IMG/VR virus record: IMGVR_UViG_3300026549_001031
Origin: a virus
Lineage: Duplodnaviria; Heunggongvirae; Uroviricota; Caudoviricetes
Reading direction: 5' to 3' (one strand)
Length of the DNA stretch: 64,000 nucleotides
Shown here: piece after piece, positions 35,541 to 63,278 of the stretch
Position numbering within the stretch: position 1 is the stretch's first letter
Layout of the letters: the number at the start of each line of letters is the position of its first letter
Notes under the pieces: generated by a model
The model's input: the letters and a program-made list of their open reading frames with translations, nothing else
Told to the model about the DNA's origin: nothing
Databases searched by the model: none
Program-made: the position numbers and the translations under genes

Positions 35541-36479
35541 ATGTATAATCCTAATATAATATATAGTGTGACAGGTAGATATATGGACGGACAGAAAATT
35601 GTGGCTTATCATCTTGTGGGTAGCGATGGTAGTCAGGAGGCTGCAACTAAAGATCGTGTATCTTGGTTAATAGGTAGGAACATGATAGACAATATGAAAA
35701 TTCAGGCTGGCAGTAATGGAAATATTATACTTAGAGGTAAGGGCATTAACTTAAGTAAATTACCAGTGTTTGATATGAACAAGCAGGAATTTAGAAATAA
35801 TCAGGCATCAGTAGAGGTTGCTAACAGTAATGTTTCAACTAAAAAGAGCAATGTACCTTATGCAAATGCAATGGGTCAATTTGAGATTGTCAAGAGAATT
35901 ATGTTTAAGAACAAGTGTATTGGTTATGAGTTGCATGATAGAAATGGTAAGCACTATAGAAAAAGACGTCAGGAAGTATTAAAACTTGCAGTTGGAAAAT
36001 TGATATGCAATGCAGGAGTTCAGAAGTATACAGATAAAAATTCTGGAGAGACAGTGCTGATTCTTCGTGGGGCAGGTACAGATTTAAGTAAGTTGCCTAT
36101 CCTGATTGTAAATGACAATGGAATGATTTATGATCCTAGTAAAGCTAGCAATGATTTAACAGTGCGTGGAGCATATATGAAATCTAATGGCATTGTAAGA
36201 GATGGAGAAGGACATAGCTTAAAGTTTAGGGCAGGAGAGTTTATAATCTGCAATGCAGATGGAAAGGTTAGCATTGTAGGTAATGAAGAGGCAAAGAGAA
36301 AGTACACTACAAAGACAGATTGTGCATCAGCAGTATGTGATGATTACTTAAGCAATATTTCTAAATACTCTATTGAGATATTTGGAAATTCTCCAATTTC
36401 ACTTTCTGCAGGAATGGTAAAGAGATGGACAATACTTAAACCTGTATGTCATAGTGATAAAAATATAGCAATGCGATAG
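35541..36479 (+). CDS. Hypothetical protein with two copies of the element-specific ~70-aa module
   Basis: Internal duplication: KIVAYHL...ILRGKGINLSKLP and KCIGYEL...ILRGAGTDLSKLP. Confidence 0.8.
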   Translation: MYNPNIIYSVTGRYMDGQKIVAYHLVGSDGSQEAATKDRVSWLIGRNMIDNMKIQAGSNGNIILRGKGINLSKLPVFDMNKQEFRNNQASVEVANSNVSTKKSNVPYANAMGQFEIVKRIMFKNKCIGYELHDRNGKHYRKRRQEVLKLAVGKLICNAGVQKYTDKNSGETVLILRGAGTDLSKLPILIVNDNGMIYDPSKASNDLTVRGAYMKSNGIVRDGEGHSLKFRAGEFIICNADGKVSIVGNEEAKRKYTTKTDCASAVCDDYLSNISKYSIEIFGNSPISLSAGMVKRWTILKPVCHSDKNIAMR

Positions 36480-36500
36480 TTTATGGGCTTATAAGGAATG

Positions 36501-36546
36501 AGTGGTATGTCATGGGTATTAAAATATGTATGGCATATCACTTTTT
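36501..36546 (+). terminator. Rho-independent terminator
   Basis: AGTGGTATGTCAT / ATGGCATATCACT then TTTT. Confidence 0.6.
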
Positions 36547-37044
36547 CTATGTCTGCATATCTGCTAGAGCATTACTAAAAATCAGCTAAGCAGTAGGGCT
36601 ATTTTCTACAATTTTTAAGAAAGCGAATCCTTTGTGATAAAATTAAGGTGGAGAAAATCAATCACAACAACTAATCAAAAATGGTAAGATCTACATATGG
36701 TTTCAGGTGCTATGCAGTGGGGTCAAAATCGCTATAGGCATTAGGGGTTCCAAAATTTAGTAATTTTCACAAGAAAATTTTGGAATTTTGGAAAATTAGG
36801 GTGTGGAAGTAGGGAAGTTTTACTATTTTAACAACTATAGTACAAGATTGAAAAATTTGCTAGCATAAGAATGAAAATCAGGTCATATGCCTGCTCTTTT
36901 GTAAAATTGATCAGCATTAAATTAAAAATTGTTTATGAGACATACATTTTTTCTCAAGTTTTGGACTTGTTTAACTACATATGATTATAAATAATTGTAA
37001 TTATTTTATTTTTATAAAGTTTAAGATAGGAGGTTGTTAGAGCA

Positions 37045-60990: not shown

Positions 60991-61049
60991 CATGTATAAC
61001 ATATTATAATAATTTTTATTATAAAATTTTTGATTGGAGGTAGTAACAG

Positions 61050-62231
61050 ATGGGTAACGACGAACTTGAATTACAAGCCGAGACCATGAATATGATGGCA
61101 ATAAACATTAAACAGTTCACTGATGAAATCAGGATGGACATGGAAGATGGAAACTATGACCCTATTATTGGTTTAGGTAAGTCAGGTATTGGAAAGACAG
61201 TGTCTATTGCAGAATTAGCACAGGAACTTGGAATTGGCTATAAGGAAATCAGATTAGTTGCAATGCAGGAGCAGGACTTACTTGGTGTTCCTGAGGTATA
61301 TGATCATAGAACTTCATATGCAGCTAACACACTATTACCTGATGCTAGCAGAGATGGAGAAGTTGGACTTCTGGTGTTTGATGAAATTACATCCTGTTCA
61401 CAGACATTAAGAGCAGCAGCTTATCAGTTGTTAGATAGTCAGAGGTCAGTAGGAAATTATCACTTGCCTGAAAAGTGGAAAGTAATTGCACTTGGAAATG
61501 GTTTAGGTGATGGGGGTGTGTTTACTGGCATGGAGTCAGCATTTCTATCACGTGCAACTTGTTTTAGGGTTGACGTTAACTTTAACGTTTGGAAAAATTG
61601 GGCAACAGCTCATGATGTGAATAAGACAGTAGTTGCTTTCTTGGAAAACAATAAGGAATTGATTCACAAGATGAATCCTGACGACATTGCAACAATATTC
61701 CCTTGTCCTAGAAGTTGGACAGCATTGAGTAAAAAGTTAAATGCAAGAGAGAAAAGAGCAAGCAATGGGATTCTAAGTCCTGAGCAGGTTGAAATTTATG
61801 CAGCTGGGGCAATTGGTAGCGATGTTGCATCAAGTTTTGCTGCTTTCTACGCTTATAACAGGGATGTACTTTCTGTAGATGATATTCTGGCAGGTAGAGT
61901 AAAAGCTAAAGACATGCAGGGAATTGAACAGCAGGCTATGTATATTACAATCAGAGAGGTTGTAAGTGAATGCAAGAAAATTCTTGAGCAGGGCAATACA
62001 GGTTTAGGTGAGTTTACAGATGATGCAATTAAGACAACAATCAATATCATCAGATGGATTGGTGAGGCATGCAACGTAAGACTCGACTATGCAACAGTGG
62101 CATTGAATGATATGATGCAGGGCATTCCTCAATTTAGAGACTTGGTATTAGTAAATGAGGACTTTAGTTTAGACTGTCCTGAATTTACAGCACTCATGGA
62201 TAAATTGAATTTATCATTTACAGCAAGATAA
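61050..62231 (+). CDS. MoxR-like AAA+ ATPase
   Basis: GKSGIGKT, DLLGVP, LVFDEI, IALGN, AFLSR, PCPRSW. Confidence 0.85.
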   Translation: MGNDELELQAETMNMMAINIKQFTDEIRMDMEDGNYDPIIGLGKSGIGKTVSIAELAQELGIGYKEIRLVAMQEQDLLGVPEVYDHRTSYAANTLLPDASRDGEVGLLVFDEITSCSQTLRAAAYQLLDSQRSVGNYHLPEKWKVIALGNGLGDGGVFTGMESAFLSRATCFRVDVNFNVWKNWATAHDVNKTVVAFLENNKELIHKMNPDDIATIFPCPRSWTALSKKLNAREKRASNGILSPEQVEIYAAGAIGSDVASSFAAFYAYNRDVLSVDDILAGRVKAKDMQGIEQQAMYITIREVVSECKKILEQGNTGLGEFTDDAIKTTINIIRWIGEACNVRLDYATVALNDMMQGIPQFRDLVLVNEDFSLDCPEFTALMDKLNLSFTAR

Positions 62232-62279
62232 TCATACAGTGGGAAATAGAAATAAAGTATTAAAATAGGAGGAAGCAAC

Positions 62280-63278
62280 ATGGCAGTAAAGAGATTTGGT
62301 GCAGTGGTAGGTATTGAAGAGAATAAAGAAAATAAGGTATACAGAGTTGTAATTGCACAGTACAATCAAAATGCTGATGGACAGACAGATTGGCAGTTCA
62401 GTTGTAGGAAAATGACTGAATCAGAATTATTTGGTACATTGACAAATGGAGCACAGTACATAAATGTTTCATTGGGTGGCTCTGGTAAAATTGAGTGGAA
62501 GTCAGGTGCAGCTAGTAGGTTTAACAGCAATAAAAGGCATAGACCTTATGTAATTATTTCACAGATCTTAAATAATGATGATAAGATCATAGGTTTTAAG
62601 GTTGCAGACTTTGATGGAAATGTAAAAAACATTAAAGCAAAAGAGATGATTGCATATGGTTACAGAATGACAAAGTTTGGAGACACACCTGTTCAAAATG
62701 CAATGTTTGTTCCATCTGATGAAAAGACAGGTAAGAAAGCTTTCTACAAGGCTTATCCAGGTAGTAAACTTTTTAAGGAAAAACTGGTCGTTAATAAAAA
62801 TAAATACAACAAGCAGGCTAAGAAACCTGACATCAATAAAAATAAAGAGTCACTTAGTAAATTGGAGCAGATATACACTCCTGAACAAATTAAGCAGTTG
62901 AAAGAGGGTAAAGCACAGGGAGTTGACATTAAGATCTATGCAAATCCTGCTTTATCAGCAGAGCAAATGAAATGGCTTAAGTTTGGTTTAACTAAAGGTG
63001 CTGATGTAAGATGTATTGCATTTCCTGAATTTAAGTTAGAAGCAATGCAGTATTATGTATGCGAGTTAATTGATGGAATGGACATTAAGAAGTATTTAAA
63101 CACAGAATACAATGCTGAACAGATTGCAGAATTGAGTTTAGCAGTTGAGGAGGGATTGGACATTAGTAATATGGCTAATCCTAAGAATTCAGCTTCTGAC
63201 ATGGCTGAGATAAGAGAGAGATTAGAGTATAACATTTGGAATGATATGTTAGTCACTAAGGATGGAAGTTGGAAGTAG
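62280..63278 (+). CDS. Divergent shared N-terminal domain + C-terminal ~26-aa helical repeats
   Basis: SGAASRF...PYVII...IIGFKVADFDG; repeats of the form EQ..L..G...G.DI..YANP. Confidence 0.8.
   Translation: MAVKRFGAVVGIEENKENKVYRVVIAQYNQNADGQTDWQFSCRKMTESELFGTLTNGAQYINVSLGGSGKIEWKSGAASRFNSNKRHRPYVIISQILNNDDKIIGFKVADFDGNVKNIKAKEMIAYGYRMTKFGDTPVQNAMFVPSDEKTGKKAFYKAYPGSKLFKEKLVVNKNKYNKQAKKPDINKNKESLSKLEQIYTPEQIKQLKEGKAQGVDIKIYANPALSAEQMKWLKFGLTKGADVRCIAFPEFKLEAMQYYVCELIDGMDIKKYLNTEYNAEQIAELSLAVEEGLDISNMANPKNSASDMAEIRERLEYNIWNDMLVTKDGSWK

What the first reader, a model, noticed from the sequence alone, without database searches (positions are those of the whole stretch)
35541..63278. An unrecognised ~70-aa module repeated about 13 times in 7 genes
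Seen: a consensus of hydrophobic strand, [IC][IV]G[YF]x[LV]xDxxG, helix, I.N, then a G-containing tail (L[RK]GxGxxLxxLP, or GxNGxxxRY / ANGKVV..ISxI) occurs twice in 35541, once at the C-terminus of 39241, twice as the whole of 53022, and as a tandem N-terminal pair in 55046, 55960, 58702 and (divergent) 62280. It is found alone, N-terminal and C-terminal, so it behaves as a mobile domain. I cannot assign it to a named family. Inference: an element-specific homotypic interaction or addressing tag that assembles or targets a protein set, for example into a compartment or to the T4SS.
Basis: partly seen in the sequence, partly recalled or inferred. Interest (0 to 1): 0.8.

Follow-up and report, generated by a model that had tools for sequence, protein, structure and literature searches.

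The report
Tandem DUF3892-like tag on seven proteins
A small ~70-residue protein domain, nearly always used as a two-copy unit, really is attached to seven otherwise unrelated genes of a giant human-gut mobile element; it is a very divergent branch of the uncharacterised DUF3892 family, and probably gives these proteins a common address, though what it binds is untested.

Summary
All 13 copies are at the stated places in 7 + strand genes. Profiles built only from distant metagenomic relatives find 12 of them at E 1e-6 to 1e-27. The first copy in 62280 is found only by profile-profile comparison (88%).

The copies form three subtypes. gA has the L[RK]GxGxxLxxLP tail, gB1 has GSNGxxxRY, and gB2 has ANGKVV..ISSI. 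Deep profiles join gB1 and gB2 to gA at 80-97% probability. AlphaFold gives every copy the same strand-strand-strand-helix-strand-strand topology.

The module is not unnamed. The 53022 protein passes Pfam's own threshold for DUF3892 (PF13031), as do some gA relatives (best E 1.1e-8).

It is not specific to this element. 1006 protein clusters carry it, almost always as an N-terminal pair on about 35 different cargo types. These include DUF2201 peptidase-vWA, LRR repeats and a DNA ligase. Relatives lie on contigs of 413-550 kb. GenBank phages and PLSDB plasmids gave no match.

This scan reached the same reading on two other genomes.

The parts
35541..36479 (+). 312-aa gene. It has gA copy 1 (35541-35774), a 34-aa linker, gA copy 2 (35877-36110) and a ~120-aa C-terminal part shared with 18 relatives. 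It lies just upstream of a gyrB-like gene.
   Evidence: Independent HMMs give E 4.9e-27 and 3.7e-24. The C-terminal cluster comes and the context.
39241..40206 (+). 321-aa gene with an unknown 240-aa N-terminal part and a single C-terminal gA copy (39961-40203). It is the only single-copy case in the window.
   Evidence: Independent HMM E 1.3e-10. The whole protein has no Pfam family.
53022..53468 (+). 148-aa gene made only of two gA copies (53022-53231 and 53244-53465). It passes Pfam's DUF3892 threshold and lies directly upstream of an IF3 gene.
   Evidence: PF13031 24.6 bits against a cut-off of 22.3. AlphaFold pLDDT 87, with strand-strand-strand-helix-strand-strand in each copy. Independent HMMs give E 3.8e-7 and 3e-11.
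55040..55942 (+). 300-aa gene with gB1 (55046-55273), gB2 (55283-55465) and a BspA-type leucine-rich repeat cargo.
   Evidence: Independent HMMs give E 1.1e-22 and 5.2e-19. LRR_5 E 9e-20.
55960..58671 (+). 903-aa gene with gB1 (55960-56187), gB2 (56206-56397) and a 750-aa cargo of no known family. This is the commonest cargo class among relatives (51).
   Evidence: Independent HMMs give E 7.8e-23 and 1.6e-25. AlphaFold model of residues 1-157 has pLDDT 94.9 and pTM 0.87. No Pfam or PDB sequence match.
58702..60990 (+). 762-aa gene with gB1 (58702-58932), gB2 (58942-59139) and a DUF2201 putative metallopeptidase plus vWA-like domain.
   Evidence: Independent HMMs give E 2.1e-21 and 5.9e-21. PF13203 E 8e-30 and PF09967 E 1.6e-13.
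61050..62231 (+). MoxR-like AAA+ ATPase. It is the only gene of this five-gene run without the module and the expected partner of the vWA protein.
   Evidence: AAA_5 E 9.3e-5. An ortholog sits in the same place in L001 at 49% identity.
62280..63278 (+). 332-aa gene with a divergent gB1 (62331-62537), gB2 (62538-62762) and a C-terminal part made of four ~26-aa repeats.
   Evidence: gB2 E 2.8e-7. gB1 is seen only by hhalign (88%, E 2.9e-6) and by colinear BLAST. The repeats were seen by eye in the translation.

Best explanation
The module is a very divergent branch of the DUF3892 superfamily. It is a ~70-residue strand-strand-strand-helix-strand-strand domain with no catalytic signature, and its working unit is a pair: gA-gA with a linker, or gB1-gB2 packed into one compact body.

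I read it as a non-catalytic docking adaptor that gives unrelated cargo proteins one common address inside the cell that carries the giant element.

For the gB pair my preferred mechanism, at about 35-40%, is coupling. The pair sits on four of the five proteins of a conserved MoxR / vWA-peptidase gene run. It would bring the LRR protein, the 903-aa protein, the peptidase-vWA protein and the 332-aa protein into one assembly. It would do so either by binding each other or by binding one shared hub or ligand, as proposed for the effector-associated domains of other MoxR-vWA conflict systems.

The basic gA pairs, which lie among topoisomerase and replication genes and next to IF3, may instead dock on nucleic acid.

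Shown: homology, fold topology, pairing, architecture, spread and purifying selection. Inferred: any binding activity and its target.
For: Identity:
- 53022 passes the Pfam DUF3892 threshold, and 10 of 55 gA relatives match it, best 1.1e-8 over profile positions 9-56 of 71.
- The deep gA profiles match gB1 at 94.9% and 96.5% probability and gB2 at 80.1% and 96.9%.
- AlphaFold gives the same topology for all four modelled copies, with pLDDT 87 and 94.9.
- Both models share the same two best single-domain viral matches.

Pair as the unit:
- 148 of 149 module-bearing representatives carry at least two copies, and 145 carry them at the N-terminus.
- pTM 0.87 for the gB pair implies a fixed arrangement of the two domains.

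Adaptor logic:
- There are about 35 cargo clusters. They include DUF2201 peptidase-vWA, LRR_5, WG repeats, DUF285 and an NAD-dependent DNA ligase.
- On the tree of gB pairs cargo changes 31 times, against 60-68 for shuffled labels and a minimum of 19.
- Polar residues of the gB pair are invariant or nearly so (at least 90%) whatever the cargo: R19, D22, N64, R69, N125, K127, S138.
- The gene order gA-gA, IF3, four gB proteins and MoxR is kept in a relative that shares only 28-63% protein identity.
- Precedent: homotypic coupling adaptors and MoxR-vWA ternary systems (PMC7159879).
- gA copies are basic, with median pI 9.1 and 9.7.
Against: - No binding partner is shown.
- The DUF3892 link of gB rests on one transitive step through gA. 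Pfam itself does not detect gB.
- gB1 and gB2 match each other only weakly (25.5%).
- No DUF3892 structure was on hand for a direct comparison.
- The module is not consistently better conserved than its cargo between the window and L001: 63 against 40%, 39 against 34%, 29 against 36%, 41 against 49%.
- A ligase fusion fits a DNA or replisome address better than a MoxR assembly.
Confidence: 0.55

Rival explanations
1. The module is a nucleic-acid- or ribosome-binding domain, as proposed in the literature for DUF3892 (a fold shared with dsRNA-binding domains and ribosome hibernation factors). It tethers cargo to the element's DNA, to RNA or to ribosomes, or senses them.
For: - Published fold-based proposal for DUF3892 (10.1101/2025.01.14.632903).
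- gA copies are basic, median pI 9.1-9.7, and the window copies 35541_2 and 39241_C each carry a net charge of +9.
- gA genes are interleaved with gyrB-, gyrA- and DnaB-like genes, and one sits next to IF3. These positions are kept in the L001/G001 relative.
- gB is fused to an NAD-dependent DNA ligase, and once to a SprT-like match.
- Weak Pfam matches to the DNA-binding protein Cren7.
- The weak best structural matches are DNA- or chromatin-associated domains.
Against: - gB copies are near neutral: median pI 8.1 for gB2, and several window copies are acidic.
- No basic or aromatic patch is conserved across all three subtypes (consensus).
- Most identifiable cargo is protein-binding repeats.
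Confidence: 0.28
2. The module is an addressing signal for export or packaging. It marks proteins for transfer through the element's conjugation (T4SS-like) machine, or for loading into a particle or compartment.
For: - The constant N-terminal unit on variable cargo resembles delivery domains of polymorphic systems.
- According to an earlier unchecked note, a pXO16-like transfer locus lies in the first 25 kb of the window.
- The family is seen so far on very large mobile-element contigs.
Against: - Nothing links the module to the transfer genes beyond their being on the same element.
- The module-bearing genes sit among replication genes and the MoxR run, not in the transfer locus.
- A stand-alone pair with no cargo (53022) and a C-terminal single copy (39241) fit a signal poorly.
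Confidence: 0.08
3. The pair is a regulatory or ligand-sensing head that controls its own cargo in cis (autoinhibition released by a small molecule or peptide). It is not an address.
For: - Polar residues are invariant or nearly so (at least 90%), clustered in the motifs GSNGxxxRY and ANGK, whatever the cargo.
- DUF3892 is linked in the literature to defence-type operons under CapH/CapP control (10.1101/2022.04.27.489752).
Against: - Many cargos are non-enzymatic repeats with nothing obvious to regulate.
- Cargo-less pairs exist (53022, and short representatives).
- No ligand-binding fold was recognised.
Confidence: 0.07

Closest known systems
Pfam DUF3892 (PF13031), small uncharacterised proteins of bacteria, archaea and phages
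   Same: The 53022 protein and some gA relatives pass or approach the family's own threshold. The predicted topology begins with the three-stranded meander plus helix described for DUF3892. Like DUF3892 it occurs on mobile and conflict-type DNA.
   Different: - The Pfam match covers only profile positions about 9-58 of 71.
- gB is invisible to the Pfam model.
- As I recall the Pfam entry (from memory, not checked here), canonical members are single-domain proteins of about 80-110 residues. Here the unit is a tandem pair fused to the N-terminus of large cargo proteins, expanded to 13 copies per element.
- The published partners (Min-Wnt effector, CapH/CapP, Cap2/Cap3) were not found among the genes scanned in this region.
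Effector-associated domains (EADs) and MoxR-vWA ternary conflict systems (Kaur, Burroughs, Iyer, Aravind 2020, PMC7159879)
   Same: The same small domain sits on several proteins of one operon built around a MoxR AAA+ and vWA pair. A constant adaptor is joined to variable cargo.
   Different: - The fold is different: EADs are mostly helical and Death-like.
- No VMAP or iSTAND third component was recognised.
- The vWA protein here is the DUF2201 peptidase type.
- Homotypic binding has not been shown here.
Chromo and chromoshadow domains, and other small strand-meander-plus-helix modules (including the N-terminal domain of SaPIbov1 Rep, 8tch)

Membership tests
Pfam DUF3892 (PF13031) | Whole-protein score at or above Pfam's gathering threshold (22.3 bits) | tested here: met
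   This holds for gA only. 53022 scores 24.6 bits, E 3.6e-5. The relative P0146 scores 35.8 bits, E 1.1e-8. 10 of 55 gA-type proteins match at E<=0.01. The other six window proteins do not reach the threshold. Single copies reach at best E 0.028.
Pfam DUF3892 (PF13031) | The gB1 and gB2 copies belong to the same superfamily | tested here: inconclusive
   No Pfam match in 81 gB-type proteins. They are linked to gA by profile-profile comparison at 80-97% probability, E 1e-5 to 1.6e-10. No canonical DUF3892 alignment could be fetched for a direct comparison.
Pfam DUF3892 (PF13031) | [quoted passage not shown] | tested here: met
   All four modelled copies show strand-strand-strand-helix followed by a hairpin, with pLDDT 87 and 94.9. 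This was compared with a published description only, not with a DUF3892 structure.
Pfam DUF3892 (PF13031) | Usual architecture: a small stand-alone single-domain protein | tested here: not met
   148 of 149 representatives carry at least two copies, and most are fused to cargo of up to 1300 residues. The 'usual architecture' itself is recalled from the Pfam entry, not checked here.
Homotypic coupling adaptors (EAD-like; PMC7159879) | The same adaptor domain on several proteins encoded in one operon with a core NTPase | tested here: met
   The gB pair sits on 4 of 5 consecutive genes around the MoxR ATPase. The arrangement is kept in L001 at 29-63% identity.
Homotypic coupling adaptors (EAD-like; PMC7159879) | The adaptor copies bind each other | not testable with these tools
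   This needs pull-down, two-hybrid or structural data.
Chromo / chromoshadow / SH3-like small barrels | A clear structural match covering the domain | tested here: inconclusive
dsRNA-binding domain / ribosome hibernation factor (the fold relatives proposed for DUF3892) | A structural or sequence match | tested here: inconclusive
   They are not among the 50 best rows for either model. The list is no proof of absence.
T4SS translocation signal | Transfer that depends on the signal, or a recognised signal motif | not tested
   No model exists for such signals in this class of element. A translocation assay is needed.

The most novel reading that the evidence does not exclude
The tandem DUF3892-like pair is the shared docking code of a class of half-megabase gut elements. 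One conserved surface (GSNGxxxRY and ANGK) binds a single hub, such as the element's own DNA, its replisome or the MoxR ring. Through it the element assembles a peptidase-vWA/MoxR machine with interchangeable cargo. That would give DUF3892 its first mechanistic role and define a new kind of adaptor-based system.
Probability: 0.2. Interest if true: 0.7.

Novelty: new variant of a known kind. Interest (0 to 1): 0.45.

Why it matters
DUF3892 is a widespread family with no tested function that keeps turning up in defence and mobile-element contexts.

Here it appears in a new form: a duplicated pair used as a constant head on dozens of cargo types, in about a thousand protein clusters. The relatives whose contigs are on record lie on large uncultured mobile-element contigs, the longest 413-550 kb. 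This gives a tractable handle. A 148-residue protein made of the pair alone, and a confidently modelled 150-residue gB unit, could both be expressed and screened for partners. The target could say what the conserved MoxR / peptidase-vWA gene run of these elements does, and what DUF3892 does in general.

It is not a new fold class, and no mechanism is shown, so the finding is of moderate rather than high interest.

Tried and rejected
- **Complex prediction.** I ran the gB pair of 58702 against the gB pair of 55960. It gave no verdict: score 0.31 against a mark of 0.32, and controls were not run. This is evidence neither for nor against binding.
- **Family libraries.** PHROGs, NCBIfam and PADLOC gave nothing for the module.
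- **PDB by sequence.** The gA profile gave no hit. The gB profile hit only LRR proteins through cargo columns. The 55960 protein gave no hit.
- **ESM Atlas.** No usable hit in either call.
- **tblastn.** The gB pair against GenBank phages and PLSDB plasmids, 53022 against phages, and 35541 against plasmids gave no match.
- **GTDB genome contigs.** Two scans found no relative. These scans find only close relatives.
- **Alignment-based locus searches.** A degenerate GIANGKVV pattern in IMG/VR gave only chance matches.
- **Canonical DUF3892 sequences.** I could not fetch any for a direct profile comparison. No whole genome is held for the window, relatives cannot be drawn for a virus record, and the last word-based search returned only two close hits.
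- **Closed or missing resources.** The 464,735-bp contig behind L009 could not be searched.
- **Idea rejected.** I tested whether the module is always better conserved than its cargo. It is not.
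Full report
**Context.** The window is low in G+C (34-38%) and has strong positive GC skew. Almost all long ORFs lie on the + strand. Earlier unchecked notes of this scan place it in a roughly 0.5-Mb gut phage- or plasmid-like element. A 96%-identical stretch lies on a 464,735-bp human-gut metagenome contig (L009). The region of the finding encodes:
- GyrB-like, AP-endonuclease-like, GyrA-like and DnaB-like proteins;
- a ParB-HNH fusion and an IF3;
- a MoxR-type AAA+ ATPase.

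**Observation.** They fall into three subtypes:
- gA, five copies, in 35541 (two), 39241 (C-terminal) and 53022 (two), with the tail L[RK]GxGxxLxxLP;
- gB1, four copies, the first module of 55040, 55960, 58702 and 62280, with the tail GSNGxxxRY;
- gB2, four copies, the second module of the same genes, with ANGKVV...ISSIxGxY.

Window copies alone give strong matches within a subtype and only weak ones between subtypes: gA-gB2 P 3e-5, gB1-gB2 1.8e-3, gA-gB1 0.012.

For an independent test I built profiles from metagenomic relatives and removed every sequence at least 45% identical to a window copy. These find 12 of the 13 copies at E 1e-6 to 5e-27 among 299 six-frame ORFs. Nothing outside the seven genes scores better than E 0.36. 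The first copy of 62280 needs profile-profile comparison (88%, E 2.9e-6) and colinear BLAST alignments. dN/dS against L009 is 0.08-0.12 in three of the four module regions that aligned without gaps; the fourth (62280) had only two differences, both synonymous.

**One family.** An exhaustive HMMER search with the 13-copy profile found 1006 representative proteins at E<=1e-3 and 280 at E<=1e-10. Among the best 150:
- 149 carry the module (the exception, P0044, is probably a repeat artefact);
- 148 carry at least two copies, and 145 carry them at the N-terminus;
- 55 are gA-gA with a median linker of 18 residues;
- 94 are gB1-gB2 with the copies abutting.

Deep profiles join the subtypes:
- gA copy 1 to gA copy 2: 99.8%
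- gA to gB1: 94.9% and 96.5%
- gA to gB2: 80.1% and 96.9%
- gB1 to gB2: only 25.5%, so these two are linked through gA.

AlphaFold models give every copy the same strand-strand-strand-helix-strand-strand topology. The 53022 model has pLDDT 87 and pTM 0.67. The model of 55960 residues 1-157 has pLDDT 94.9 and pTM 0.87. The high pTM of the gB pair implies that its two domains pack in a fixed way. Both models have the same two best single-domain matches among predicted viral structures: A0A2Z3EDR9, and a 92-residue protein of a Bacillus phage.

**Named family.** The module is not unnamed. 53022 passes Pfam's threshold for DUF3892 (24.6 against 22.3 bits). Ten of 55 gA-type proteins match it, the best at E 1.1e-8 over profile positions 9-56 of 71. 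Three of the 13 single copies match weakly. None of 81 gB-type proteins matches, so gB is tied to DUF3892 only through gA.

DUF3892 has no tested function. One preprint describes its fold as a three-stranded meander plus helix, like dsRNA-binding domains and ribosome hibernation factors, and proposes sensing of viral RNA or ribosomes. Another finds DUF3892 operons under CapH/CapP regulators.

**Architecture and spread.** The parts outside the module fall into about 35 clusters.
- For gB, the largest are the 55960-like cargo (51), DUF2201 peptidase plus vWA (41) and LRR (27).
- Smaller gB cargos are WG repeats, DUF285 and, in one relative (P0199), an NAD-dependent DNA ligase.
- For gA, the largest is the 35541-like C-terminal part (18). 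No Pfam domain other than DUF3892 was found in gA proteins.

On a tree of 153 gB pairs, cargo class changes 31 times, against 60-68 for shuffled labels and a minimum of 19. Cargo is therefore mostly inherited with the pair but has been swapped repeatedly. The tree is a quick one built on a short alignment.

Relatives come from Logan, ENA and JGI assemblies, on contigs of up to 413-550 kb. GenBank phages, PLSDB plasmids and GTDB species genomes gave no match.

One IMG/VR contig (L001/G001, 87,960 bp) shares only 28-63% protein identity. It keeps the whole order: a two-copy gA protein, a C-terminal-copy protein, then ParB-HNH, the 52005-like gene, gA-gA, IF3, three gB proteins, MoxR and the 62280-like protein.

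**Mechanism.** Nothing suggests catalysis. The constant pair on variable cargo, the cargo-less pair (53022), and the set of polar residues that are invariant or nearly so (at least 90%) in all gB pairs whatever the cargo (R19, D22, N64, R69, N125, K127, S138) all point to a docking module with one common partner.

For gB, four of five consecutive genes around a MoxR ATPase and a vWA-peptidase carry the pair. Published analyses of MoxR-vWA and GTPase conflict systems propose that such shared domains couple components by binding each other (PMC7159879). I take this as the most likely reading, but it is inference.

For gA, the basic charge (median pI 9.1 and 9.7) and the position among topoisomerase and replication genes and next to IF3 favour nucleic acid as the partner. 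The ligase fusion of gB points the same way. I could not discriminate between these readings. Nothing supports the T4SS idea beyond the element carrying a transfer locus.

**Relation to earlier work of this scan.** Two follow-up reports on other genomes (e1-5769353, e1-5891129) describe the same tandem DUF3892-like tag on six or seven proteins of related giant elements. My tests here were run independently and agree.

**Verdict.** The module is a new, expanded, tandem and fused variant of a known but uncharacterised family. Its function is open.

Noticed in passing
window 53680-54189 (+): The element encodes a complete translation initiation factor IF3 (IF3_N and IF3_C). It lies directly downstream of the cargo-less gA-gA gene. 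The adjacency is kept in L001 at 50% identity.
   Followed up: partly
window 62763-63278 (+), C-terminal half of the 62280 protein: Four consecutive ~26-residue repeats of the type xxAEQ[IM]xxLxxGxxxGxDIxxxAxP. No family match.
   Followed up: no
protein P0199 (558 aa, Logan contig of 20,476 bp): In this relative the gB1-gB2 pair (residues 1-146) is fused to an NAD-dependent DNA ligase (PF01653, PF03120, PF22745). That is a DNA-metabolism cargo, unlike those in the window.
   Followed up: partly
window 58702-60990 (+), about residues 400-530 of the protein: A long acidic low-complexity insert rich in D, S, N and E interrupts the DUF2201_N putative metallopeptidase domain. The Pfam match spans 355 residues for a 271-position profile.
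   Followed up: no
window 37045-39108 and 42097-44388 (+): GyrB-like and GyrA-like type II topoisomerase genes are separated by three genes: the 39241 module protein, an unknown 211-aa protein and an AP-endonuclease-2-like protein. Two module genes bracket gyrB, and G001 has matching module hits about 4.3 kb apart.
   Followed up: partly
window 50115-51695 (+): A ParB N-terminal domain is fused to an HNH nuclease, with a ~110-residue acidic N-terminal tail. It is the best conserved gene of the region between the window and L001 (63% identity).
   Followed up: no
protein P0044 (2934 aa): It scored E 4e-17 with the 13-copy profile through 14 short stretches matching only profile positions 17-40. 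The deep subtype profiles do not confirm it. It is probably an unrelated beta-hairpin repeat protein.
   Followed up: partly
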